This document shows, in pieces, positions 2,718 to 58,465 of a stretch of 64,000 nucleotides of DNA (within the stretch, counting starts at the first letter, position 1; each line of letters begins with the position of its first letter). The DNA lies in the NCBI GenBank assembly GCA_017461745.1, contig JAFTXE010000078.1, positions 30,282 through 94,281 of the forward strand. Direction: 5' to 3'. Source of the stretch: Clostridia bacterium (GTDB lineage: Bacteria > Bacillota > Clostridia > Oscillospirales > CAG-272). The notes under the pieces were generated by a model. That model was not told the DNA's origin. It ran no database searches and worked only from the letters and a program-made list of their open reading frames with translations. The translations under genes were made by a program, and so were the position numbers.

Positions 2718-3407
2718 TTATCCTTCAAATCTGTATCCCACTCCTCTTAGAGTTACTATCATTCTCGCATATCTGCCCAAGCTCTTACGCAATAGCTTAA
2801 TATGCGTATCAAGCGTTCTGACGTCTCCAAAGAAATCATATCCCCACACGTCGCTGATAAGCTTTTCCCTTGACAACGCTATATTTCTGTTTTCAAGCAT
2901 ATAAAAGAACAGATCGTATTCCTTGGGAGACATATCTATGCGAACGTCATCGATATATACTATTCGCGCCGTCACGTCAGCACGCAAGCCCCCGCCGTCG
3001 AGGCTAACGACAACGTTTTGCTTTTTTTCGTTATCAACGCCATTACTCTTGGTTCTCTTCATAACGGCTTCAATTCTGAGCATAAGCTCCTTGGGCGAAA
3101 AGGGCTTTACAACGTAATCGTCTATACCAAGCTCAAATCCGTTTATCTTATCGTATTCCTCACCTCTTGCCGAGAGCATTATGATCGGAATATTTGAATG
3201 CTTTCTTATCTCTCTGCAAGCTGAAAAGCCGTCAAGCTCGGGCATCATTATATCCATGATAACTATATCGTATTCATTTGCTCTGACAAGTCTTACGGCT
3301 TCCATTCCGTCTGCGGCTTCGGTAACGGTGTATCCTTCAAATTCCGCATATTTTTTTATTATTGAACGAATTCTTACTTCATCGTCAACAACGAGTATAT
3401 GATACAT
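2718..3407 (-). CDS. OmpR/PhoB-family response regulator
   Basis: Receiver domain (VVDDE..D..MPELDG..K) plus a winged-helix C-terminus (LTxKEYDLFFYM..TLDTHIKLLRKSL..RGVGYRF). GGAGG RBS. Confidence 0.92.
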   Translation of the reverse strand: MYHILVVDDEVRIRSIIKKYAEFEGYTVTEAADGMEAVRLVRANEYDIVIMDIMMPELDGFSACREIRKHSNIPIIMLSARGEEYDKINGFELGIDDYVVKPFSPKELMLRIEAVMKRTKSNGVDNEKKQNVVVSLDGGGLRADVTARIVYIDDVRIDMSPKEYDLFFYMLENRNIALSREKLISDVWGYDFFGDVRTLDTHIKLLRKSLGRYARMIVTLRGVGYRFEG

Positions 3408-3425
3408 TCTGACTCCTCCAATGCT

Positions 3426-4937
3426 TTAATATTTAGATGTGTTTTCTTGAGCCTTAACATTTATATCGACAAAACTTCCGTCTCTCGCAACACAAACCGT
3501 AACCTGTTCTCCAACTGAAAGCTTTTTGAGCGCGGCATTGTAGTCGCTCATAGTCTCAATTGAAGTATCGTTTATCTTTATTATTCTATCCAAATATTCA
3601 AAATTTGATTTTCCTGCATTAGTAACATACACTCCATATACTTCTTTTTTTCCCTCTTTAATAGATCCGTATTGAACTGTCACACCAAAGGTAATTCTAC
3701 CTCTTACGTAGCCGTATTCAAGTATATCCTGTATATCCTTGTAAACAACGTCCGAGGGAATGGCAAAGCCCAAGCCCTCAATTCCCGTGCTTGATTGCTT
3801 TGCGTTGACTATTCCCACAAGCTCGCCCGCCATATTGAACAAACCACCGCCCGAGTTACCGGGGTTTATAGCCGCATTGGTCTGTAGCAGGGTCATCGTA
3901 TTGTCACCTATGATTATTTCTCTGTCGAGCGCGCTTATAATACCGTCCGTTACAGTACCGCCAAGCTGACCGAGGGGATTGCCTATCGCAACCACCTGTT
4001 CTCCGACAAGCAGCTTATCACTCTGAGCAAAAACCAAATCCTCAAAGCTATGCTCAACGTATTTAATTCCTATTACTGCGATATCCTCCGCGGAATCTCC
4101 CGCTATATATTCAGCGACGTAATCGCTATATGAATCTCCGTCTTTTATTCTTACGCTTATCTCATCAGCGCCGTCAATAACGTGATAATTGGTTACAATA
4201 TAGGTATATCCCTTATCGTTCTGATCAAAAACCACTCCGCTTCCCGCTCCGCTGGTTATATACTGACCGTAAAACGTATTCGTTTCAACATGGGTCGTGG
4301 TTATTTCCACAACGTTTCCGCCAATATATGCGGCAACCTGAGCGACGGTCATATCAGAATATCCCGTTTCTCCCAGCACCTCTTCTACGGTTATTTCTCT
4401 GTTACTGCGAATTATCTTGACAAGCTCGTCATCGCCGTTTCCCGAAAGGTCCAAGATAATACCGCCACCCGCTATTGCTCCCGCAATAGCTCCGAGAGTA
4501 ACGGACAGCGCCACACAGATAGCGCATATAGCCACAAGAGCACCTGCACCGTATTGCTTCTTTTTAGCTTTCTTCTTCTTTGCGTCGGAAGATGACGCCG
4601 CATCCGTATTATTTACCACTGTAAAATTAGGAATATAATGCGGCGGAGTATAGTCGGTGGAGTATTTACTCTCGCCGCTTATATTTTCGTCTTTATCGTC
4701 TTTTTCAGTTGAGAGTTCTTCTTCTCTATCGTTTTGACCTTCCCCTGAAGCTTCTTTGATTTCTTCTTCAGCACCTTCGCCTTGGAACGCATCTGCTTGT
4801 GCTTCTTGTGAAGGGATTTTTTCACCTTTTTCTTCGCTGCCTTGGATGTCTTTATCATTTTTATTATCATTATTTAACGTCACTTCCTCACTGTCAGAAT
4901 TTATATTTTTATTATTTTCATAATTATTTTCGTTCAT
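3426..4937 (-). CDS. htrA: HtrA/DegP-type S1C serine protease with PDZ domain, one TM segment and a long acidic N-terminal low-complexity region
   Basis: Catalytic motifs TNYHVI, DIAV and GNSGGGLF, with a C-terminal PDZ-like region. I prefer the ATG at 4937 (GGAGG 5 nt upstream) over the track's TTG at 4949, which overlaps the RBS. Confidence 0.85.
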   Translation of the reverse strand: MNENNYENNKNINSDSEEVTLNNDNKNDKDIQGSEEKGEKIPSQEAQADAFQGEGAEEEIKEASGEGQNDREEELSTEKDDKDENISGESKYSTDYTPPHYIPNFTVVNNTDAASSSDAKKKKAKKKQYGAGALVAICAICVALSVTLGAIAGAIAGGGIILDLSGNGDDELVKIIRSNREITVEEVLGETGYSDMTVAQVAAYIGGNVVEITTTHVETNTFYGQYITSGAGSGVVFDQNDKGYTYIVTNYHVIDGADEISVRIKDGDSYSDYVAEYIAGDSAEDIAVIGIKYVEHSFEDLVFAQSDKLLVGEQVVAIGNPLGQLGGTVTDGIISALDREIIIGDNTMTLLQTNAAINPGNSGGGLFNMAGELVGIVNAKQSSTGIEGLGFAIPSDVVYKDIQDILEYGYVRGRITFGVTVQYGSIKEGKKEVYGVYVTNAGKSNFEYLDRIIKINDTSIETMSDYNAALKKLSVGEQVTVCVARDGSFVDINVKAQENTSKY

Positions 4938-12976: not shown

Positions 12977-13834
12977 ATGGCAACAATAGAAAATTTCGCC
13001 ACCGTCAGTTATACGTCGGGTGGCGTTAGCGCTACGAAAATTTCAAATCTTGCGGAGATTGAGCTTGATTCTTCGCTGAGCTTTTCAAAAACCACCTTGG
13101 GAACGACTTACTCGGCAAATACACCCGTTACCTACGTTCTTTCGGTAACAAACAGCTCAACCGCTCCTATAACAAACATTGTTATAACAGACGACCTCGG
13201 TACGTTTACGCTTGACACTACCGAGCTTACGCCGCTGACGTTCGTTGAGCCTGCCCTTTTGCTCATAAACGGTCAGGACTCAACGTCTCAGCTTACGGTT
13301 GACAGTACGACGGCGGGCAGCTTGGTATTTACTATTCCTACTCTTGCGCCCTCAGCTACCGCAAACATTATTTACAACGCACTGCCCAATGAATTTGCGG
13401 CGTTAGCATCAGGCTCGTTTATCACAAATAACGCAACACTCTCAAGCGATTCTGACTGTGCTGACGGCGCGGCTACCGCAACGGTTACGGTGGCTGACGC
13501 GGCTGACGTTGAGGTAGTCAAGACGATGTCGCCCAATCCCGTCGTATGCGGTGATACCGTTACCTACACCATACGCATTTACAACTACGGTAACATAGAC
13601 GCAGAAAACGTTGTTCTTACGGATACCTTTACGCCCGCGCCTGAAAATATCACTGTATATCGCAACGGCGTAATGCTTGACGGAACGGGATATACTTATA
13701 TTGACGGCACGCTGACCGTTCCCGCTACAGCGGGTGACACAGTTCCCGCCGCTGTCTTTACAAGGGACGCTACCACGGGTGAGGTAAGCGTTACCCCCGG
13801 TGTTGTGGAGTACGTTATTACCGGAACAATCTAA
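12977..13834 (+). CDS. Tandem DUF11 (conserved repeat domain) protein with no signal peptide
   Basis: Two modules with the DUF11-like signature (TPVTYVLSVTNSSTAPITNIVITDDL and GDTVTYTIRIYNYGNIDAENVVLTDTF). Thr/Ala/Val-rich beta-type composition. AAGGAG RBS. No N-terminal hydrophobic segment. Confidence 0.6.
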   Translation: MATIENFATVSYTSGGVSATKISNLAEIELDSSLSFSKTTLGTTYSANTPVTYVLSVTNSSTAPITNIVITDDLGTFTLDTTELTPLTFVEPALLLINGQDSTSQLTVDSTTAGSLVFTIPTLAPSATANIIYNALPNEFAALASGSFITNNATLSSDSDCADGAATATVTVADAADVEVVKTMSPNPVVCGDTVTYTIRIYNYGNIDAENVVLTDTFTPAPENITVYRNGVMLDGTGYTYIDGTLTVPATAGDTVPAAVFTRDATTGEVSVTPGVVEYVITGTI

Positions 13835-13856
13835 AATAATTTCCCAAAATATTTAT

Positions 13857-13888
13857 GGGAGCTGAATCATTAACTTGATTCAGCTCCC
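13857..13888 (+). terminator. GC-rich hairpin downstream of the DUF11 gene; it is also the left cap of repeat element A
   Basis: GGGAGCTGAATCA-TTAACT-TGATTCAGCTCCC, a 13-bp perfect stem. The downstream T-tract is weak. Confidence 0.6.
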
Positions 13889-14303
13889 ACAATTTTTAAG
13901 ATATATCCCAAAATTATGATTTATCGGGGAGTAAGATATCTATGTTCGCTCTCTTTGGGTGTCATTCTGAGCAGAAGAGAGTTAGTGGGTGTACCTAATA
14001 AACAGTGCGACAATGTTTGCACAAGCAAACTTGGGACGGAGCGTAGCGGAGTGTAGAATCTTTGCGACGAAGGAGCAACTAACGACATAGTTATTGGGAG
14101 ATTTCTTGAAGTACAAGAGATTACCCTTCTAAGTTGGTTATTGCCGCAAGCGGCAAAGATCCTTCGAATTTAGTGCTCCCAATTTTATGCATACGCTCAG
14201 GATGACACAGAGAGAGTGCATACATATCGAACAGCCTGATAAATCATAATTTAGCGATATTGAAAAGTCAAAGGGCTTAAGTCAAGTTAATGACTTAGCC
14301 CTT
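13857..14303. repeat. Hairpin-capped palindromic (MITE-like) intergenic element, copy A, with a 222-nt unique core
   Basis: Inverted hairpin caps at 13857-13888 and 14271-14303. Perfect 15-nt inverted repeats at 13911-13925 and 14238-14252 extend to a ~60-bp imperfect duplex. The termini are shared with 57292-57606. No ORF of 60 aa or more. Confidence 0.6.
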
Positions 14304-14381
14304 TTATACTATGTTATTTGATTTTTCTTATCTTTTATTCGTGTATTTTTTTTGCTAAACGCAACAGCACTTATTAAAATT

Positions 14382-16442
14382 TTATGAGTTTTCCTTCTTA
14401 TAGTTCTCAACTATCTTTGCCGCAATGTTTCCGGGAACGATATCGTAAGCGTTTACAGCGTACTCAAAGCTTCCTCTACCCTGAGTCATTGCGCGGAGAA
14501 TGATGGGATATTCAACAAGCTCTGCCTTGGGAGCGAGAGCGTGTACTACCGTATAGCCCTTCTTATTCTCTACGGGCTCCATACCCATAACTGCGCCGCG
14601 TCTCTTATTAAGGTCTCCCATAACGTCACCCACGAGCGCGTCGGGAACGTAAATATCAAGATCGCCTACGGGCTCAAGAATTACGGGAGCCGCCTGCTCA
14701 AGACACTTCTTATATGCGATATTTGCCGCCGTCTTGAAGGATATTTCATCAGAGTCAACGTCATGGTAAGAGCCGTCATAGAGGTCTGCCGCAAGTCCTA
14801 CGAGCGGGAAGCCTGCAACGCCCTTTGCCATGGAGTCCTGAAGTCCCTTTTCTACTGCGGGATAGAAGTTCTTGGGAACAGTTCCGCCAACGACGGAAAC
14901 GGTAAATTCAAGACCTTCACTCTCAGAGGGAGCAAAGCGAATCTTAACGTGACCGTACTGACCCGATCCTCCATTCTGCTTCTTATGCTTTCCTTCAACG
15001 TCAACTCTCTTGGTTATCTTCTCGCGGTACGCTATCTTAGGCGTATCAAAGTTGACGCTTACTCCAAATCTGTTCTTAAGCTTTGCGGAAAGAACTGCCA
15101 AATGCATATCTCCAAGTCCCGAAACGAGCATCTGCTTAGTCTCGGAATTATTCTCATATTTAACTGTGAGGTCTTCCTCAATCATCTTGACTATACTCTG
15201 AGATATCTTGCCCTCGTCCTTTGCGGTTGCGGGTATCATGGCCTTGGTATAGTAAGAGGTGGGATATGTAATAGGAGCGAACTTCATCTCCTTATTCCAC
15301 GTCAGCGTATCGTTGGTATTAGTACCCGTAAGCTTTGCTACCATACCAATATCGCCGCATGCAAGCTCGTCTACCTCGGTCTGCTTCTTACCGTTCATAA
15401 CGTAGATATGAGCAAGCTTTTCGCTGTCGCCCGTTGTATTATTCTGCATGAGCAGATCGCGCTTAACAGTTCCGTTCATTACCTTGAAGTAGGACATCTT
15501 ACCTACGAAGGGGTCAGCGACTGTCTTGAATACGAACAGCGCAGGCTCGCCCTCGGGAGTAATCTCTACGGTCGAGCCATCAGCCAGCGTTTCGTTCTTC
15601 TTAGCGGTATGTCTCGGGAAGGACTCTGTAATCTTATCGAGCATTGTCCAAACGCCCCAAAGCTTTGTTGCCGCTCCGCAGAATACGGGAACGATATCGC
15701 CGTGAATTATACCCTCGTGAACTGCGTTTATTGCTTCCATATGGGTAATCTCTTCACCGTCGAAATACTTCATCATCAAGTCCTCGTTGGTACTTGCAAC
15801 GGCTTCCATTAGCATATCGCGATACTTCTCTACCGCTTCCATAGACTCGGCGGGAATGACCTCAACGCTATGACGTCCGTTATCGTCGAATACGTGAGCA
15901 GACTGGTCAATAAGGTCTATACAACCCTTAACTACGCCATCCTTAACCATAGGAATAGTCAAGGGGCATATATGCTTACCGAAGGTAACGTGCAAATCGT
16001 CAAGAACACGTGCAAAACGCGCGTCGTTATCGTCGAACTTATTGATAAAGAACGCTCTGGGCAGCTTTGCCTCGTCGGCATATCCCCAAGCAAGCTCCGT
16101 TCCTATTTCAATTCCCGCCTTACCGTCAACAACGATTATCGCGCTGTCTGCAACGCGGAGCGCCTGCTTCGTCTCGCCGACGAAATCGAGATATCCAGGG
16201 GTATCGAGAATATTTATCTTACAATCCTTCCACGTCATATTTACAACGGACGCAGAAAGCGAGAAGCCTCTCTTTACCTCCTCTGCATCAAAGTCAGAAA
16301 CGGTATTTCCGTCACTAACCTTTCCCAAACGATCTATCGCACCCGTTATATAGAGCATAGACTCGGAAAGCGACGTTTTTCCGCTTCCTCCGTGTCCAAG
16401 CAATGCAATATTTCTGATTTTTTTGGTTTCTACCATAGCCAT
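14382..16442 (-). CDS. Elongation factor G paralog (EF-G2-like translational GTPase)
   Basis: G1 GHGGSGKTS, G3 DTPGYLDF, NKFD, and EF-G domains II-V recognisable by eye. The true start is the ATG at 16442 (MAMVETKK, GGAGG RBS). The track's 69-aa upstream extension is intergenic. Confidence 0.85.
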   Translation of the reverse strand: MAMVETKKIRNIALLGHGGSGKTSLSESMLYITGAIDRLGKVSDGNTVSDFDAEEVKRGFSLSASVVNMTWKDCKINILDTPGYLDFVGETKQALRVADSAIIVVDGKAGIEIGTELAWGYADEAKLPRAFFINKFDDNDARFARVLDDLHVTFGKHICPLTIPMVKDGVVKGCIDLIDQSAHVFDDNGRHSVEVIPAESMEAVEKYRDMLMEAVASTNEDLMMKYFDGEEITHMEAINAVHEGIIHGDIVPVFCGAATKLWGVWTMLDKITESFPRHTAKKNETLADGSTVEITPEGEPALFVFKTVADPFVGKMSYFKVMNGTVKRDLLMQNNTTGDSEKLAHIYVMNGKKQTEVDELACGDIGMVAKLTGTNTNDTLTWNKEMKFAPITYPTSYYTKAMIPATAKDEGKISQSIVKMIEEDLTVKYENNSETKQMLVSGLGDMHLAVLSAKLKNRFGVSVNFDTPKIAYREKITKRVDVEGKHKKQNGGSGQYGHVKIRFAPSESEGLEFTVSVVGGTVPKNFYPAVEKGLQDSMAKGVAGFPLVGLAADLYDGSYHDVDSDEISFKTAANIAYKKCLEQAAPVILEPVGDLDIYVPDALVGDVMGDLNKRRGAVMGMEPVENKKGYTVVHALAPKAELVEYPIILRAMTQGRGSFEYAVNAYDIVPGNIAAKIVENYKKENS

Positions 16443-16491
16443 TGGTTTTTCCTCCTTCTCCGCGCTTTGCGGGAAACAAATAATATATATA

Positions 16492-16520
16492 ATTATACAA
16501 TATATTGGTGAATTTTTCAA
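16492..16520 (-). promoter_or_regulatory. Sigma-A promoter of the EF-G paralog
   Basis: Minus strand: TTGAAA, 17 nt, TGTATAAT. Confidence 0.55.
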
Positions 16521-16598
16521 GATATTTTCTTGTATTTTTTCAATGTCACGCGTAGAAATATTAGTGATTTTTTTGTTGATTTTGCCCAAAAGACGAGT

Positions 16599-16636
16599 AA
16601 AAAAAGATGCGAGCCGTCCACTAACTCGCATCTTTT
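16599..16636 (-). terminator. Intrinsic terminator
   Basis: Minus strand: AAGATGCGAG-loop-CTCGCATCTT followed by TTTTTTT. Confidence 0.75.
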
Positions 16637-16653
16637 CTATAAGAATCCGCATA

Positions 16654-43361: not shown

Positions 43362-43620
43362 AATACTGAAAATGCATTGATGAAGCTCGCGCCTTTGATA
43401 CCTTACCACAGAGAAGATCGCCTTGGCTGGAAGCGGTCGTAAACGTACTCAGGTCGGCATTTCACTTCGGAGCAGGTTCTGTGAACGCTTATGCTTTTAG
43501 CGGAACTCGGAGACACCGTTACAGTCAACAAGAGAGCTAAAAGCCCTATGCTTTTGGAATTTAGGTGGTACCGCGGAGTATATTACCCCGTCCTATTTAT
43601 TTAGGATGGGGTTTATTTTT
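43362..43620 (+). promoter_or_regulatory. T-box riboswitch leader (Phe specifier) with terminator
   Basis: Conserved T-box AATTTAGGTGGTACCGCGG (43558-43576). AGAGA box in stem I. Candidate specifier UUC-A in CATTTCAC. Terminator CCCCGTCCTA-loop-TAGGATGGGG plus T-run (43586-43620). Upstream of pheS. Confidence 0.88.
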
Positions 43621-43661: not shown

Positions 43662-44675
43662 ATGAAAGAAAAACTTCAAAAAATCAAAGCAGATGCGTTA
43701 GCCGCGATAAATTCGGACAACGCAGATCTTGAACAGATCAGAATTCAATACCTCGGAAAAAAAGGTGAGCTTACCTCCGTGCTTCGCGGAATGGGCGCTC
43801 TCTCCGCTGAGGAACGACCCGTAGTTGGTCAGATTGCCAACGAGGTAAGAGCTGAAATAGAGTCGGCGCTGAAGGTTAAGGCAGAAGCTAAAAAGGACCA
43901 AGAGCTTCAAAAACGTCTTATTTCCGAAAAAATAGACGTTACTCTTCCCTCCAAAGCTGCCACCCCAGGTAAGCTTCATCCATTAGTGCAGGTTCAGAGA
44001 ACTATTGAAGATATTTTTATAGGAATGGGCTTCTCAATTGCGGAAGGTCCTGAGGTTGAATACGATTACTACAACTTCCAAGCGCTCAATATTCCCGAAA
44101 ATCATCCCGCAAGAGACACGCAGGATACGTTTTATATTACCGACAACATACTTCTCCGCTCTCAGACGTCTCCCGTTCAGGTAAGAACCATGGAACATCA
44201 AAAGCCTCCGATAAGAGTTATTTCTCCAGGTCGCGTTTACCGCTCCGACGCAGTTGACGCAACGCACTCTCCTCTGTTCCATCAGGTAGAGGGCTTGGTC
44301 GTTGACAAGGGCATCACCATGGGTGACCTCAAGGGCATGCTTGAGACGTTTGCAAAGACGCTTTTCGGAAATGACACGAGACTTCGTTTCCGTCCTCACC
44401 ACTTCCCGTTCACCGAGCCTTCGGCTGAGGTTGACGTTTCCTGCTTCGTATGCGGCGGAAAGGGTTGCAGAGTCTGCAAGAATGAAGGCTGGATAGAAAT
44501 ACTCGGTTCGGGTATGGTACACCCCTTCGTGCTTTCAAACTGCGGCATTGACCCTGAGGAATACAGCGGCTTCGCATTCGGAATGGGCGTTGAAAGAATT
44601 GCTATGAAATACTACGGTATTGACGATATGCGTCTGCTTTATGAAAACGACACCCGTTTTCTTGAGCAGTTCTGA
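43662..44675 (+). CDS. pheS: Phenylalanine--tRNA ligase alpha subunit
   Basis: [17 protein letters not shown] and GSGMVHP class II motifs. Confidence 0.95.
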
Positions 44676-49006: not shown

Positions 49007-49063
49007 ACAAAACAATTTGAAAAAGTAGCTCGTTAAAGTCGTGCTATAGAAGATAGTTTTGTA

Positions 49064-49108
49064 ATAATACGGCATATCTCAAAGGAGATATGCCGTATTA
49101 TTATTTTA
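49064..49108 (+). terminator. Intrinsic terminator
   Basis: AATAATACGGCATATCTC-AAAG-GAGATATGCCGTATTATT followed by ATTTT. Confidence 0.85.
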
Positions 49109-49246: not shown

Positions 49247-49330
49247 TGGTGCGAGAAACGGGACTTGAACCCGTACGGTGTAACCACACGCCCCTCAAAC
49301 GTGCGCGTCTGCCAGTTCCGCCACTCTCGC
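49247..49330 (-). tRNA. tRNA-Leu (anticodon GAG), class II with a long variable arm and encoded CCA
   Basis: Manual fold. Acceptor GCGAGAG/TTCTCGC. Anticodon stem CACGT/GCGTG with loop TTGAGGG. T-arm ACGGG-TTCAAGT-CCCGT. 3' ACCA. Confidence 0.9.
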
Positions 49331-55955: not shown

Positions 55956-57281
55956 ATGGAGACATTATTAAGCTTATCAATCGCACTTTTCGTCGGACTT
56001 ATGCTATCGCGACTTGCAAAGCTCGCAAAGCTCCCTGCCGTTACCGCATATCTTGTTGCAGGTATTCTCGTAGGCCCGTATTTACTTGGCTCTTTCGGAA
56101 TACACGGTCTTGGATTCGTAAGCATGGACGACGTAGGTACATATTCTTTACTCTCTGACGTTGCGCTTGGATTCATAGCATTTTCAATAGGCAATGAGTT
56201 CAGACTGTCCCAACTCAAGCAAACGGGAAAGCAAGCAATGATTATAGGCATAGTTCAGGCAGTATTTACAACACTCTTGGTTGACGCCGTCCTTATTGCG
56301 CTTCACTTCGCTATGCCCGACAAGCTTCCCCTTCCCACAGCTATCGTACTCGGCGCTGTTGCATCGGCAACCGCTCCCGCGGCAACCTTGATGGTAGTTC
56401 GTCAGTACAAGGCTAAGGGTCCACTCACAAATCTCTTGCTTCCTATAGTAGCGCTTGACGACGCTGTCGGACTTATTCTTTTTGCTACGTCCTTCGGAGT
56501 TGCCAAGGCTCTCATTTCGGGTAGTGTTGACATTATTTCCGTAGTAGTTGAGCCCATTATAGAGGTCGTTGGTTCTTTGGCTCTCGGAGCTATCATGGGT
56601 CTGCTGTTTACCTTCTTCGAGAAATTCTTCCATTCAAGATCAAAGCGTCTTTCTATGTCGGTTACCTTCGTATTCCTCACGGTTGCTTTTTCAATGCTTA
56701 AATTTGAGGTATTCGGTATCCACGTTTCCTTCTCTTCTCTTCTCGTTTGCATGATGCTCGGTACGGTCTTCTGCAATGCTTGTGACTTTTCCGAGGAGCT
56801 TATGGACAGAGTTGACCGTTGGACAGCTCCCCTATTCGTCTTATTCTTCGTTATAAGCGGCGCTCAGCTTGAGCTTTCGGTATTCACCGACCTTGCGATA
56901 GTCCTTATCGGTGTAGTTTATATCATAGCACGTTCCGCAGGAAAATACTTCGGTGCGTTTACCAGCGCTAAAGCCACTAAGTGCAGCAATAGCATTGTAA
57001 AATACCTTGGAATAACGCTTCTTCCACAAGCGGGTGTTGCGCTTGGAATGGCGATAAAGGCTGAGCAGGAGCTTGGAGAGTACGGCTCTATGATCGCAAA
57101 TATTACTCTGTTCGCTGTACTTATTTATGAGCTTGTAGGACCTATGCTTACAAAAATATCTCTTCTCAAGGCGGGTGAAATTCAGCCCGAGGGCGCTGTC
57201 AGCGCACGTGAGGAGGCTCGCAAAGCAACGGAGCATAAGCACCTCGGAATTCATTTCCATCACAATAATCCCCAGCAATAA
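55956..57281 (+). CDS. Cation:proton antiporter (CPA2/Kef-type membrane domain)
   Basis: About 12 TM segments. The N-terminus SIALFVGLMLSRLAKLAKLPAVTAYLVAGILVGP is typical of Na+/H+ exchanger family proteins. ATG at 55956 (GGAGG RBS). Confidence 0.8.
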   Translation: METLLSLSIALFVGLMLSRLAKLAKLPAVTAYLVAGILVGPYLLGSFGIHGLGFVSMDDVGTYSLLSDVALGFIAFSIGNEFRLSQLKQTGKQAMIIGIVQAVFTTLLVDAVLIALHFAMPDKLPLPTAIVLGAVASATAPAATLMVVRQYKAKGPLTNLLLPIVALDDAVGLILFATSFGVAKALISGSVDIISVVVEPIIEVVGSLALGAIMGLLFTFFEKFFHSRSKRLSMSVTFVFLTVAFSMLKFEVFGIHVSFSSLLVCMMLGTVFCNACDFSEELMDRVDRWTAPLFVLFFVISGAQLELSVFTDLAIVLIGVVYIIARSAGKYFGAFTSAKATKCSNSIVKYLGITLLPQAGVALGMAIKAEQELGEYGSMIANITLFAVLIYELVGPMLTKISLLKAGEIQPEGAVSAREEARKATEHKHLGIHFHHNNPQQ

Positions 57282-57291
57282 ATAACATAAT

Positions 57292-57332
57292 AAAACGGAG
57301 CTGAATCATTACCTTGATTTAGCTCCGTTTTT
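57292..57332 (+). terminator. Intrinsic terminator of the antiporter gene; it is also the left cap of repeat element B
   Basis: ACGGAGCTGAATCA-TTACCT-TGATTTAGCTCCGT followed by TTTT. Confidence 0.8.
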
Positions 57333-57606
57333 ATTGTTTAAATCATGATTTGTAGGAGTTGCGAGGATGCGATTTCCGCTTTTTTTGAAAAAAAGCTTGG
57401 CAAAAAACTTCCTTGCACGGTGGTAGCCCTTAAAACTGTTCTTAAAATATATATGTATTACAAAGGGCTACCGCCATGCAAGAAAGCTTTTGCGGAGCTT
57501 TTCTCGAAAAGCGACAACGCGTCCTCCGCAGCCCTGACAAATCATAATTTAAAAATACATATCAAAAAACATATGGGAGCTGAGTCGGGTTAATGACTCA
57601 GCTCCC
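57292..57606. repeat. Hairpin-capped palindromic (MITE-like) intergenic element, copy B; almost fully self-complementary
   Basis: Caps at 57295-57328 and 57575-57606. Inverted repeats AAATCATGATTTGT (57340-57353) and ACAAATCATAATTT (57537-57550). Nested palindromes throughout. The termini are homologous to 13857-14303. Confidence 0.6.
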
Positions 57607-57611
57607 TATTT

Positions 57612-58277
57612 TTAGTCTTTCTTTTTTATATAAGAAATATTGCTTACCACAGTTGCCGCTATGGCGGTAATTATTATCTCGGGTATCATATAAAGTCCGT
57701 TGTAGAATATGGAATAAATAAGCGCAAGTCCCTTGCCGCTGAAAGTGCCCAATATCTTTTCGCCTATTGCGTAAAAGCCCTCCTGCGAGAAGAACCATTC
57801 CGCCCATGCACCGTAAAAGATATATCCTGAGATAATATGACATACGTATCTCAAAGACAGCGCTACGATTACGCCAAGAACTATCGCAAGCATCTTATTT
57901 TTTATACGGTTTCGGAATATTCCCCCCACGCCAAGCACGGTATACGCAATAATATAATCTATTATGATTATCGCAAACGCCGCGCCAAGTCCCATGTAAT
58001 CATCGGATGACGGAGTGAATAAGAGAAGTACCGTTTTACCCATTACAAGCGATATTAGCATTTGTATAACGGAATACGCAAATGATACGAACATTCCCCA
58101 TCTTACTCCGTACATATACGACACGATTACGATGGGTAGCATACTCGCCACGGTAAAGCCTCCGCCAAACGGCATACTGAGGAAAGGAATAAATTCGCAT
58201 ACGAGCGCAAGCACTGTCGCAAACGCCAGCATGACAGCTGACAAGGTCAGCCTTTGTGTCTTTTGTGTGGATTTCAT
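57612..58277 (-). CDS. thiT: ECF-transporter S component for thiamine (ThiT/YuaJ-like)
   Basis: Six TM segments in 221 aa, directly downstream of a TPP riboswitch. GGAGG RBS. Confidence 0.75.
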   Translation of the reverse strand: MKSTQKTQRLTLSAVMLAFATVLALVCEFIPFLSMPFGGGFTVASMLPIVIVSYMYGVRWGMFVSFAYSVIQMLISLVMGKTVLLLFTPSSDDYMGLGAAFAIIIIDYIIAYTVLGVGGIFRNRIKNKMLAIVLGVIVALSLRYVCHIISGYIFYGAWAEWFFSQEGFYAIGEKILGTFSGKGLALIYSIFYNGLYMIPEIIITAIAATVVSNISYIKKKD

Positions 58278-58304: not shown

Positions 58305-58465
58305 GAAAACCGCACGGAAATCTCCGTGCGGTTGAATTTTTATCCGTATCTTTTATTGACACTCGGAAAAGCAATCTCCCTACGCCGGCATTATCCGTAT
58401 CAGGTTAAAGGGTTCAGCTTTCGCCATCTCAGCCATAATAGGCACCCCCGATTTCTATGCGGTTT
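58305..58465 (-). promoter_or_regulatory. TPP (THI-box) riboswitch with terminator expression platform
   Basis: Minus strand: GGGGTGCC..GCTGAGA..ACCCTTTAACCTGATACGGATAATGCCGGCGTAGGGA, followed by AACCGCACGGAGATTTCCGTGCGGTTTTCG. Confidence 0.9.

What the first reader, a model, noticed from the sequence alone, without database searches (positions are those of the whole stretch)
13857..14303. Hairpin-capped ~450-bp palindromic element between convergent genes (copy A of a repeat family)
The gap between the DUF11 gene stop (13834) and the EF-G-paralog stop (14382) is one two-fold-symmetric unit.

- Outer caps: 13857-13888 is GGGAGCTGAATCA-TTAACT-TGATTCAGCTCCC. The reverse complement of 14271-14303 (AAGGGCTAAGTC-ATTAACTT-GACTTAAGCCCTT) has the same loop.
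- AT-rich spacers follow each cap.
- Perfect 15-nt inverted repeats come next: AAATTATGATTTATC (13911-13925) and GATAAATCATAATTT (14238-14252).
- These continue inward as a ~60-bp imperfect duplex: GATATCTATG/CATACATATC, CGCTCTCT/AGAGAGTG, and GTGTCATTCTGAGC (13959-13972) / GCTCAGGATGACAC (14195-14208).
- The duplex encloses a 222-nt non-symmetric core.

There is no ORF of 60 aa or more and no transposase. The same caps and terminal repeat recur at 57292-57606, also between convergent genes, so this is a dispersed element family rather than a single elaborate terminator. The architecture resembles MITE or Correia-type elements. I cannot place it in a described family.
Basis: seen in the sequence. 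Interest (0 to 1): 0.7.

Follow-up and report, generated by a model that had tools for sequence, protein, structure and literature searches.

The report
Foldback intergenic repeat with twin terminators
The 450-bp palindromic stretch between two convergent genes is a real, non-coding, hairpin-forming repeat element of a small family found in uncultured ruminant-gut Clostridia. Its two outer hairpins appear to serve as the terminators of the neighbouring genes, so it is a new example of a familiar kind of "junk-like" mobile DNA, not a new kind of system.

Summary
Element A (13857-14303) and element B (57292-57606) share about 75-nt inverted terminal modules. Each module is a hairpin "cap", a T-run, a spacer, then TAAATYATGATTTRTMRGG ("BOX"). 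The modules enclose unrelated foldback cores.

- **No coding or known RNA:** no ORF above 55 aa in A, no Rfam family, no plasmid, phage or literature match.
- **Empty sites:** six related species with the same convergent gene pair have only one 35-55 bp bidirectional terminator there.
- **B's core is a true family:** at least 37 variants in ruminant metagenomes and at least 4 copies in this species. The arms are invariant, the loop varies, and pairs show compensatory changes.
- **BOX-type ends occur elsewhere:** they bound other foldback or REP-like arrays in related Clostridia, including at the same EF-G-paralog site in three relatives.
- **Not found:** target-site duplication, transposase, strand bias in wobble pairs, or consistent promoters.

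Best reading: a non-autonomous REPIN/MITE-like foldback repeat whose caps act as intrinsic terminators. The mobilising enzyme is unknown. A's own core is single-copy in everything I could search. This is a new member of a known kind, of moderate interest.

The parts
12977..13834 (+). Left flanking gene (DUF11/CLIPPER repeat protein, 285 aa). Its stop lies 22 nt before cap A-left.
   Evidence: ORF list; Pfam PF01345 on the called gene.
13857..13888 (.). Cap A-left: GGGAGCTGAATCA-TTAACT-TGATTCAGCTCCC, a 13-14 bp perfect stem flanked by an A-rich and a T-rich run. Probable bidirectional intrinsic terminator.
   Evidence: I3. Called terminator-like on both strands. 28/30 identical to cap B-left.
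13889..13910 (.). Left spacer (T-run plus GATAT-type motif). Homologous to the spacers of the other three ends.
   Evidence: Alignment A1; flank symmetry score 19 against shuffles 8.4 +/- 1.6.
13911..13929 (+). BOX-left: AAATTATGATTTATCGGGG, the terminal inverted repeat shared with B and with elements in other Clostridia.
13930..13972 (.). Left inner arm of the imperfect duplex, ending in GTGTCATTCTGAGC.
   Evidence: I1, I2. The GTCATYCTGAGC module also follows the BOX in L045 and L031.
13973..14194 (.). Non-symmetric core of 222 nt. Weak structure, no relatives found.
   Evidence: z -2.4/-2.1; searches found no homologues.
14195..14234 (.). Right inner arm, starting with GCTCAGGATGACAC.
   Evidence: I1, I2.
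14235..14252 (-). BOX-right: CCTGATAAATCATAATTT, the reverse complement of the BOX motif.
14253..14270 (.). Right spacer. On the minus strand it holds TTGACT-17-TATGAT, the only sigma-70-like match among the four ends.
14271..14303 (.). Cap A-right: AAGGGCTTAAGTCA-AGTTAAT-GACTTAGCCCTT, a diverged copy of the cap with one bulge and T-rich tails on both strands.
   Evidence: I4, I5. Not called by the simple terminator scan.
14304..14381 (.). AT-rich 78-nt tail outside the symmetric unit. Absent from relatives' intergenic regions.
14382..16652 (-). Right flanking gene (EF-G paralog).
   Evidence: Pfam GTP_EFTU/EFG_III/IV/C.
57292..57331 (.). Cap B-left with A- and T-runs. Terminator of the Na+/H+ exchanger gene.
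   Evidence: (I4).
57340..57550 (.). B element, BOX to BOX: one long imperfect hairpin (about 85 pairs). Member of the B-type family.
57575..57606 (.). Cap B-right: 12-bp perfect stem. Terminator of the thiT-like gene.
   Evidence: (I5).

Best explanation
A is a non-coding, non-autonomous foldback repeat element. It is one member of a superfamily of hairpin-forming intergenic repeats in ruminant- and gut-associated Clostridia that share the terminal inverted motif TAAATYATGATTTRTMRGG ('BOX').

Shown: it occupies a site where related species have a single bidirectional terminator, and elements with the same ends lie elsewhere in the same genome.

Inferred:
- It spreads, or once spread, as DNA with the help of an enzyme encoded elsewhere. 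A REP-associated (HUH/Y1) transposase acting on single-stranded hairpins, as for REPINs, fits better than a DDE transposase because there is no target-site duplication.
- The long palindrome is kept intact either by selection for the hairpin or by arm-to-arm template switching.
- The two outer 'cap' hairpins, each with a T-run, now work as the intrinsic terminators of the two convergent genes. That would be why an element can be tolerated at a junction that otherwise has room for only one shared terminator.
For: 1. Real, far-from-chance symmetry and shared 75-nt ends between A and B.
2. Six relatives with the same DUF11/EF-G-paralog convergence (EF-G 84-90% aa identity) have only 35-55 bp holding one hairpin.
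3. B-type core:
   - 13, then 37, spurious-ORF variants. Most of the first 14 begin MIYRG/MIYQG (the BOX read as codons); several end ...NHNL (BOX-right).
   - At least 4 copies in the same species MAG GCA_017518005.1, in unrelated contexts.
   - Invariant 45-nt arms, a variable loop, matched numbers of 9-nt repeats.
   - 97.7% of cells paired, and 11 pairs changed on both sides against 5.6 +/- 1.5 in shuffles.
4. BOX or close variants bound other foldback or REP-like arrays in other Clostridia. This includes the same site downstream of the EF-G paralog in L107, L108 and L131.
5. No ORF, Rfam, phage or plasmid match.
6. No flanking direct repeats. The BOX pair matches as well or better as an inverted repeat than as a direct repeat in the five copies compared: better in four, equal in B (sequence read).
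7. A REP-associated tyrosine transposase-like gene sits in relative L119. Group 1 RAYTs are reported in Clostridia (PMC5581495).
8. The caps are terminator-like on both strands and are the only hairpins between each stop codon and the element. None of at least 9 other perfect-stem terminators in the window resembles them.
Against:
- There is no strain-level presence/absence: every assembly with the identical flanking protein carries A or B.
- A's own core has no second copy anywhere.
- Only 2 elements lie in 83 kb.
- The exact BOX 20-mer is rare in 185,579 species genomes: 13 hits, about 8 of them in Clostridia.
- The elements are two to five times longer than described REPINs, and the GTAG foot is only approximate.
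- The 93% identity of caps between A and B, which have unrelated cores, is not explained by simple transposition of either core.
- Compensatory changes could come from template switching, not from selection.
Confidence: 0.58

Rival explanations
1. Locally grown palindrome, not a mobile element. An original single terminator region was expanded in place by fold-back or template-switch duplication. This copied the terminator and its neighbouring sequence to the other side in inverted orientation. The resemblance between A and B reflects gene conversion or a shared mutational process.
For:
- Numbers of 9-nt repeats match between the arms.
- G.T and A.C mismatches are equally common, as expected for a DNA-level process.
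- No TSD and no transposase.
Against: - It does not explain identical invariant arms at at least 4 unlinked loci of one genome and in at least 37 metagenomic variants.
- It does not explain the same 19-nt BOX on unrelated cores in different genera.
- Two copies (L198-1, L203) have no symmetric flanks.
Confidence: 0.15
2. A structured non-coding RNA gene, or a convergent sense/antisense pair. The BOX (TATGAT) is the -10 box, the transcript starts at GGGG, the long hairpin is the RNA, and the opposite cap is its terminator.
For: - The BOX contains TATGAT/CATAAT. The right end of A has TTGACT-17-TATGAT on the minus strand (10/12).
- In L198/L200 and several spurious-ORF variants, BOX-right is followed by a hairpin and T-run.
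- Very stable folds. A folds 23 kcal/mol better on the + strand.
- Covariation in the B-type.
Against: - Only 1 of the 4 ends in the window has a -35. Genuine promoters here are TTGACA/TTGCAA-17-TATAAT with an extended -10 (TG upstream). No consistent -35 lies upstream of the B-type copies (sequence read).
- No strand bias in wobble against A.C mismatches in the B-type.
- No Rfam match even at permissive thresholds beyond generic hairpins.
- Copies sit in every orientation relative to genes, some 25-50 nt from start codons.
Confidence: 0.12
3. Cassette bounded by recombination sites. The BOXes are inverted binding sites of a site-specific recombinase (Xer/dif-like or another tyrosine or serine recombinase). 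Cores are exchanged between docking sites made of cap, spacer and BOX. This would explain identical ends with unrelated cores. An invertible switch is a special case.
For: - A and B share 75-nt ends but have unrelated cores.
- The BOX is itself near-palindromic (AAATCATGATTT), and in L058, L081 and L070 it forms a single perfect palindrome such as CCCGATAAATTATGATTTATCGGG.
- The geometry (15-19 bp inverted repeats around 190-310 bp) is typical of invertons.
Against: - No recombinase in 83 kb.
- No consistent dif-like arm-spacer-arm layout at the four ends (my reading).
- BOX positions co-vary between the two ends, which is not expected for a fixed protein site.
- Loop or core orientation is the same in all 6 B assemblies and 2 partial A assemblies.
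- A position between convergent genes gives a switch nothing to control.
Confidence: 0.07
4. Nothing but two elaborate, independently evolved bidirectional terminator regions.
For: The caps are terminator-like, both loci lie between convergent genes, and only two copies are in the window.
Against: - The ends are homologous over about 75 nt, including non-hairpin spacers.
- The B core recurs upstream of genes and between tandem genes.
- Relatives manage with one 35-55 bp hairpin.
- Other terminators in the window are unrelated to the caps.
Confidence: 0.03

Closest known systems
REPINs / REP-BIME elements mobilised by RAYTs (Bertels & Rainey 2011, PMC3116915; Bertels et al. 2017, PMC5581495)
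   Same: - Non-coding and extragenic.
- Two highly conserved inverted arms separated by a less conserved spacer, predicted to form a long hairpin, with frequent compensatory changes and no TSD.
- Each B-type arm contains its own short palindrome.
- Singlet or tandem copies of the arm module exist elsewhere (L207, an Anaerotruncus plasmid).
- REP-like GTAG/CTAC hairpin arrays bounded by the same BOX occur in relatives, and one relative has a RAYT-like gene.
   Different: - 211-447 bp instead of about 70-110 bp.
- The foot motif is RT(A/C)RGG, only sometimes GTAG.
- The copy number seen is small.
- No RAYT could be shown in this genome.
- Extra outer terminator hairpins; A has a large asymmetric core.
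- The host is an uncultured Clostridia lineage, whereas REPINs have mostly been described in Proteobacteria.
Correia repeat-enclosed elements of Neisseria
   Same: Small, non-coding elements with inverted-repeat ends that fold into a hairpin, often lie next to genes, and can act as terminators (from general knowledge).
   Different: - No sequence similarity.
- Correia elements are 100-155 bp with 26-bp TIRs and a TA duplication. Here no consistent TA or other duplication is seen, the size is larger and the phylum differs.
Pneumococcal BOX and RUP elements (modular MITE-like repeats of Firmicutes)
   Same: Modular foldback repeats in a Firmicute: conserved terminal modules pair with each other around variable internal modules, with no coding capacity (from general knowledge).
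   Different: Unrelated sequences. boxA/B/C modules are absent. RUP has IS630-type ends and a TA duplication.
Bidirectional intrinsic terminator between convergent genes
   Same: Each cap is a GC-rich hairpin with A- and T-rich flanks, sited directly after a stop codon. Relatives have exactly one such hairpin at this site.
   Different: There are two caps, 380 bp apart, that are copies of each other and of the caps at a second locus. The DNA between them belongs to a repeat family.

Membership tests
MITE (generic) | Small (under about 500 bp) with no coding capacity | tested here: met
   447 and 315 bp. Longest ORF lying wholly inside: 55 aa in A, 82 aa in B (spurious, starting in the BOX).
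MITE (generic) | Terminal inverted repeats shared by the copies | tested here: met
   15/15 in A, 17-27 nt in B, four ends aligned.
MITE (generic) | Several dispersed copies in one genome | tested here: met
   A, B, L200-1, L200-2 and L204 all come from the same species. Only a draft MAG was reachable, so the total number is unknown.
MITE (generic) | Target-site duplication flanking each copy | tested here: not met
   No direct repeats at the borders of 7 copies. Flanks are either unrelated or inverted (sequences). TA next to the BOX is inconsistent (A-left, L203-right and L205 lack it).
MITE (generic) | Autonomous IS with the same ends | tested here: inconclusive
   None was seen in the loci hit by the BOX pattern, in plasmids or phages, or in 83 kb of the source contig. 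ISfinder and the whole genome were not available.
REPIN / REP-RAYT | Two conserved inverted arms, a less conserved spacer, a hairpin, and compensatory changes | tested here: met
   B-type: invariant arms, variable loop, 11 pairs changed on both sides, 97.7% of cells paired. A: 55-nt arms at 78% around a 222-nt spacer.
REPIN / REP-RAYT | Arms are 20-40 nt REP palindromes with a conserved tetranucleotide (GTAG) foot; unit of about 70-110 bp | tested here: inconclusive
   Arms contain local palindromes (GCTTTTTTGAAAAAAAGC, GCTTTTCTCGAAAAGC). The foot is GTAG in B-left and L201 but ATCG, GTCG or GTCA elsewhere. The unit length is 211-447 bp.
REPIN / REP-RAYT | A RAYT gene in the same genome, usually flanked by the repeats | not testable with these tools
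   Only 83 kb of the genome could be read, with no RAYT there. A RAYT-like ORF (NF047646, 53.9 bits, below the 80-bit cut-off) lies in relative L119 next to the EF-G paralog.
Correia element | The Correia TIR sequence, a TA duplication, a Neisseria host | tested here: not met
   Different terminal sequence and host. No consistent TA. The Correia consensus is recalled from the literature, not aligned here.
IS200/IS605-derived PATE | Subterminal hairpins in direct orientation, no TIR | tested here: not met
   The cap loops are in inverted orientation at the two ends, and true TIRs are present.
Any Rfam RNA family | Score at or above the family's gathering threshold | tested here: not met
   Nothing at gathering score. 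Permissive scans give only generic hairpin or miRNA-precursor matches far below threshold.
Intrinsic terminator | GC-rich stem-loop followed by a T-run, directly downstream of a gene | tested here: met
   Cap A-left is called on both strands and caps B-left and B-right are called. Cap A-right has a bulged stem and was not called. This applies to the caps only, not to the 380 bp between them.
Inverton (invertible switch) | Segment found in both orientations, with an invertase | tested here: inconclusive
   Same orientation in 6 assemblies of B and 2 partial assemblies of A. No recombinase in 83 kb. Read-level data are not available.

The most novel reading that the evidence does not exclude
BOX-ended foldback elements are a Clostridia-wide, REPIN-like class of replicators whose palindromes grow outward by copying adjacent DNA. 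In this lineage one variant has captured an intrinsic terminator at both ends and so acts as a mobile 'twin terminator'. It can settle between convergent genes by replacing their shared terminator, and different cores are swapped between identical cap-spacer-BOX ends.
Probability: 0.15. Interest if true: 0.65.

Novelty: new member of a known kind. Interest (0 to 1): 0.4.

Why it matters
- **Genome quality:** repeat families of uncultured gut and rumen Clostridia are almost undescribed, yet they break metagenome assemblies. Most B-type copies sit on contigs under 1.5 kb, and several contigs end inside A or B. They also generate spurious "hypothetical proteins" (37 clusters for this family alone).
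- **Practical use:** a defined family with a recognisable end motif helps to mask such ORFs, to interpret contig breaks, and to look for the enzyme that moves them.
- **Biology:** if the caps are carried by the element, it would be a concrete case of selfish DNA supplying terminators to host genes.

None of this changes a major concept. Hairpin-forming non-autonomous repeats are well known.

Tried and rejected
- **Promoter reading of the BOX:** only A-right has a -35. True promoters in the window are canonical with an extended -10 (TG upstream).
- **RNA strand test:** wobble against A.C counts and the energies of the two strands show no bias for the B-type. The apparent excess of G.U is an artefact of deriving the structure on that strand.
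- **TSD / TA-target idea:** inconsistent across copies.
- **BOX as a duplicated palindromic target:** rejected, because the two BOXes match as well or better as inverted than as direct repeats (better in four of five copies, equal in B).
- **dif/Xer-like site, sigma-54 promoter, hammerhead ribozyme, 6S RNA, type I toxin ORFs:** considered from the sequence and dropped, with no layout or model match.
- **Cap pattern (30 nt):** 0 hits in 185,579 species genomes. The cap-BOX gap pattern gave only chance hits in JGI metagenomes.
- **Exact BOX 20-mer:** 13 hits in species genomes, about 8 real. B-type arm: 1 hit. No hits in viral contigs.
- **Spurious ORFs of A:** no homologues; the two hits were low-complexity giants.
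- **Plasmid and phage BLAST:** only the short arm module in an Anaerotruncus plasmid.
- **Literature:** string and keyword searches found nothing on these sequences.
- **My first claim of '0 BOX in 875 kb of relatives':** it held only for the strict motif. A relaxed scan found variant BOXes (AAATTTTGATTT, AAATTGCGGTTT) in L107, L108, L131 and L149.
Full report

Yes. Reading 13700-14500 and 57150-57750 shows every feature at the stated coordinates. The repeat finder reports:
- the left cap (13848-13869/13876-13897, 22 nt, 86%);
- the right cap (14270-14284/14291-14305);
- cap-to-cap complementarity (18 nt, 89%), which keeps the loop TCATTAAC in the same inward orientation;
- a 55-nt (78%) arm pair, 13903-13957/14206-14260;
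- a 32-nt (78%) arm pair, 13941-13972/14195-14226, enclosing 222 nt.

The 15-nt terminal repeat is perfect. No ORF exceeds 55 aa. Element B has the same layout, but its interior is one long hairpin.

The four ends align over about 75 nt: cap, T-run, spacer with a GATAT-like motif, then TAAATYATGATTTRTMRGG (alignment A1). Cap A-left is 28/30 identical to cap B-left and 29/33 to cap B-right.

This is more than chance:
- The 12-mer AAATYATRATTT ('BOX') occurs exactly four times in 64 kb, only at these ends. With one mismatch there are 8 matches against 2.5 expected, reached by 0 of 100 shuffles.
- Fold energies lie 10-15 standard deviations below dinucleotide shuffles.

Two small corrections. The last 78 nt of the gap (14304-14381) are outside the symmetry, and the 222-nt core is only weakly structured (z about -2.4).

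**2. Where it comes from, and how stable it is.**

The flanking proteins are found on ENA ERZ28654221 scaffold_352, a 126.6-kb contig from a ruminant gut metagenome. The window is bases 45378-109377 of that record. The same species is represented by MAG GCA_017518005.1.

- A lies between a DUF11/CLIPPER gene and an EF-G paralog.
- B lies between a Na+/H+ exchanger gene and a thiT-like gene that has a TPP riboswitch.
- Every assembly carrying the identical flanking protein also carries A or B, with a handful of substitutions and the same orientation.
- Extending the contig to 83 kb found no further copy.

**3. Empty sites.**

Eighty related loci were fetched with the EF-G paralog. Six relatives (L089, L090, L092, L093, L098, L115; EF-G 84-90% identical) keep the same convergent DUF11/EF-G arrangement. 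Their stop codons are only 35-55 bp apart, and that space holds one A-run/hairpin/T-run terminator, different in each species. The 547-bp gap of the window is therefore derived.

The picture is not a simple single insertion. A relaxed motif scan shows that three more distant relatives also have foldback or REP-like arrays just after the terminator of the same EF-G paralog:
- L107 (8168-8493);
- L108 (two in tandem);
- L131 (from 6119).

These arrays are bounded by variant BOXes: AAATTTTGATTTATCGGTG and AAATTGCGGTTTRTCGGGG.

In L119 the same site holds a gene resembling a REP-associated tyrosine transposase (NCBIfam NF047646, 53.9 bits, below the 80-bit cut-off). In L087 it holds an RHS-toxin-like ORF. 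The site is a recurrent landing or turnover spot.

**4. Is it a family?**

For B, clearly yes. The 82-aa spurious ORF that runs through B found 13 other spurious ORFs. A profile built from them found 37. Most are from ruminant metagenomes and on contigs below 1.5 kb.
- Most begin MIYRG/MIYQG, which is the BOX read as ATG ATT TAT CGG GG.
- They share FFEKKLGKKLPC...KKAFAELFSKSDNAS.
- Several end ...NHNL, which is BOX-right.

Two of them are from GCA_017518005.1. With an nhmmer scan of the fetched loci, this gives at least four B-type copies in this species: B, L200-1, L200-2 and L204. The contexts vary: between convergent genes, between tandem genes, 25-110 nt upstream of start codons, and between two half-size TauE genes.

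Among copies (alignments A2 and A5):
- the two roughly 45-nt arms are invariant;
- the terminal loop is free to vary;
- the distal stem and even the BOX itself change in a compensatory way;
- the stem base carries matched numbers of 9-nt GGGGAYGCG repeats.

On 8 copies, 97.7% of cells are paired. Eleven pairs changed on both sides, against 5.6 +/- 1.5 in shuffles (0 of 500 reach it). Slid controls pair at 41-48%.

For A the evidence is thinner. Its core has no relative anywhere. Only the beginning recurs, in two other Clostridia MAGs, L045 and L031: BOX, ATCGGGG, then a GTCATYCTGAGCG hairpin module.

**5. The BOX beyond this species.**

A scan of 185,579 species genomes with the degenerate BOX gave mostly chance hits. 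A coherent subset in gut and rumen Clostridia stood out. In that subset the motif follows a gene's terminator and opens GC-rich hairpins.
- Minimal forms exist, such as AAATTATGATTTATCGGGCAG-cttcg-CTGCCCGATAAATCAGAATT (L023).
- Some genomes have several BOXes bracketing arrays of GTAG/CTAC hairpins typical of REPs (L058, L049, L026, L081).

The exact 20-mer is rare: 13 hits, about 8 of them real. The caps are found nowhere else. The superfamily is therefore diverse and individually low in copy number in the genomes available.

**6. How does it work? Tests run.**

- **(a) Promoter.** Only A-right has a -35 (TTGACT-17-TATGAT). The real promoters of the T-box and TPP leaders are TTGCAA/TTGACA-17-TATAAT with an extended -10 (TG upstream). 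B-type copies have no consistent -35.
- **(b) RNA or DNA.** Both strands of B-type copies fold equally well. Transitions giving G.T on one strand or the other are balanced (9/9, 4/7, 5/5, 6/8). Only L198-2/L200-2 lean to the strand of the surrounding genes (3/11, 2/8), and A leans to the + strand (18/13; -130 against -107 kcal/mol). There is no convincing RNA signature.
- **(c) Transposition marks.** There are no flanking direct repeats. The two BOXes match as well or better as inverted than as direct repeats (better in four of the five copies compared, equal in B). Several copies instead have copy-specific inverted flanks beyond the BOX:
  - the caps in A and B;
  - a perfect 15-nt pair in L198-2/L200-2;
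  - a short weak one in L201.
- **(d) Enzyme.** No transposase or recombinase lies in the 83 kb read.
- **(e) Known families.** There is no Rfam family even at permissive thresholds. Nothing turned up in phages, plasmids or viral contigs apart from a tandem copy of the arm module in an Anaerotruncus colihominis plasmid. The same arm module occurs as a tandem pair upstream of rpmG-secE-nusG in L207.

**7. The caps.**

Each cap stands directly after a stop codon, has A- and T-rich flanks, and is the only hairpin available to end the adjacent gene. Cap A-right has a bulged stem and is not called.

At least nine other perfect-stem terminators in the window are unrelated to the caps. The cap sequence is therefore tied to these two elements and is not the house style of the genome.

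Any DNA that sits between a terminator and the next gene will trivially lie 'next to a terminator'. At a convergent junction with one shared terminator, however, there is no free room, and both elements found at such junctions have a cap on each side. I infer that the caps now serve as the two terminators. Whether they were carried in, or copied across by palindrome extension, is open. The 93% identity between caps of A and B, whose cores are unrelated, is not explained by any simple model.

**8. Comparison with known systems.**

The best architectural match is the REPIN, as defined in PMC3116915: two highly conserved inverted arms, a less conserved spacer, a hairpin in single-stranded DNA or mRNA, frequent compensatory changes, and a RAYT encoded elsewhere. 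Further points in favour:
- the lack of a TSD;
- the approximate GTAG foot;
- REP-like arrays bounded by the same BOX in relatives;
- a RAYT-like gene in one relative;
- the reported presence of Group 1 RAYTs in Clostridia (PMC5581495).

Against membership: the size is 2-5 times larger, the foot is variable, few copies are seen, and no RAYT has been shown in this genome.

Generic MITE criteria are met for size, TIRs and dispersal, but fail on the TSD and lack a parent IS. Correia, pneumococcal BOX/RUP and IS200/IS605-derived elements share the general idea but neither the sequence nor the defining details.

**9. Verdict.**

The most likely nature is a non-autonomous, hairpin-forming REPIN/MITE-like repeat that doubles as twin terminators (confidence about 0.58). 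Rivals:

| Rival | Confidence |
|---|---|
| In-place palindrome growth | 0.15 |
| RNA gene | 0.12 |
| Recombination-site cassette or inverton | 0.07 |
| Plain terminators | 0.03 |

It is a new member of a known kind, of moderate interest.

Noticed in passing
window 43368-43598 (+): T-box leader (97.3 bits) with a canonical TTGCAA-17-TATAAT promoter (extended -10, TG upstream), upstream of the ORF at 43662-44675.
   Followed up: partly
window 58360-58459 (-): TPP riboswitch (66.6 bits) with a perfect TTGACA-17-TATAAT promoter (TG upstream), in front of the thiT-like gene that borders element B.
   Followed up: partly
window 49247-49330 (-): Single tRNA-Leu(GAG). Next to it lie a 19-bp perfect-stem hairpin (49062-49103) and A/T-run palindromes (TTTTTTCAAAAAA) like those inside the B arms.
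   Followed up: no
L168 and L169 (Logan assemblies), equivalent to window 14051: Two independent assemblies both end exactly 217 nt after the DUF11 stop, inside A's core at ...gagcgtagcggag. Four assemblies of B also end inside the element. This may reflect a repeated k-mer, a palindrome or a polymorphism; it is unresolved.
   Followed up: partly
L087 4888-6722: In one relative the same DUF11/EF-G intergenic site holds a 2-kb insert with an RHS/YD-toxin C-terminal-like ORF and a second ORF. The junction is a variable spot.
   Followed up: no
L119 4384-4938: REP-associated tyrosine transposase-like ORF (NF047646, 53.9 bits, below cut-off) directly after the EF-G paralog's terminator. Its N-terminal half appears interrupted by a pair of GTAGGGGAGG.../...CCTCCCCTAC hairpin sequences read in frame.
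   Followed up: partly
L028 (reverse-complement coordinates 2921-3940), L040, L075 (MAG CAKSNH01, Hadza gut): A non-coding palindromic repeat of about 1 kb, present several times in the three loci fetched from this MAG. It starts with TAAATTATGATTTGTAGGGG or ...GTCGGGG. No Rfam match.
   Followed up: partly
L025 and L072 (Johnsonella sp. HGM12372): Another multi-copy non-coding sequence of about 300 nt that begins right after the BOX (TAAATTATGATTTATCGGGAAG...). It is unrelated to A or B.
   Followed up: no
L206 1470-1545 (Anaerotruncus colihominis plasmid NZ_CP094683) and L207 2425-2510: The left-arm module of B (GCTTTTTTGAAAAAAAGCYTSGGCAAAAAACTT) occurs as a tandem direct pair without the palindromic partner. 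In L207 it lies upstream of rpmG-secE-nusG. It may be a REP-like singlet unit widespread in Oscillospiraceae.
   Followed up: partly
L201/L202 4591-5614: A B-type copy lies between two 128-aa TauE-family ORFs. Either it split a full-length TauE gene or it sits between two natural half-size genes. Its inverted repeat extends outward (CTGTACGTCATAGTATG / CATACTATGACGTACAG).
   Followed up: partly
L198 6743-6960 and L200 3288-3504: In this B-type copy the right arm has CGGAGC replaced by TTACGAAGCGTAGCGAAGT. This short motif (GAGCGTAGCGAAG) also occurs in A's core and in the L045 module, which suggests exchange of small modules between element types.
   Followed up: no
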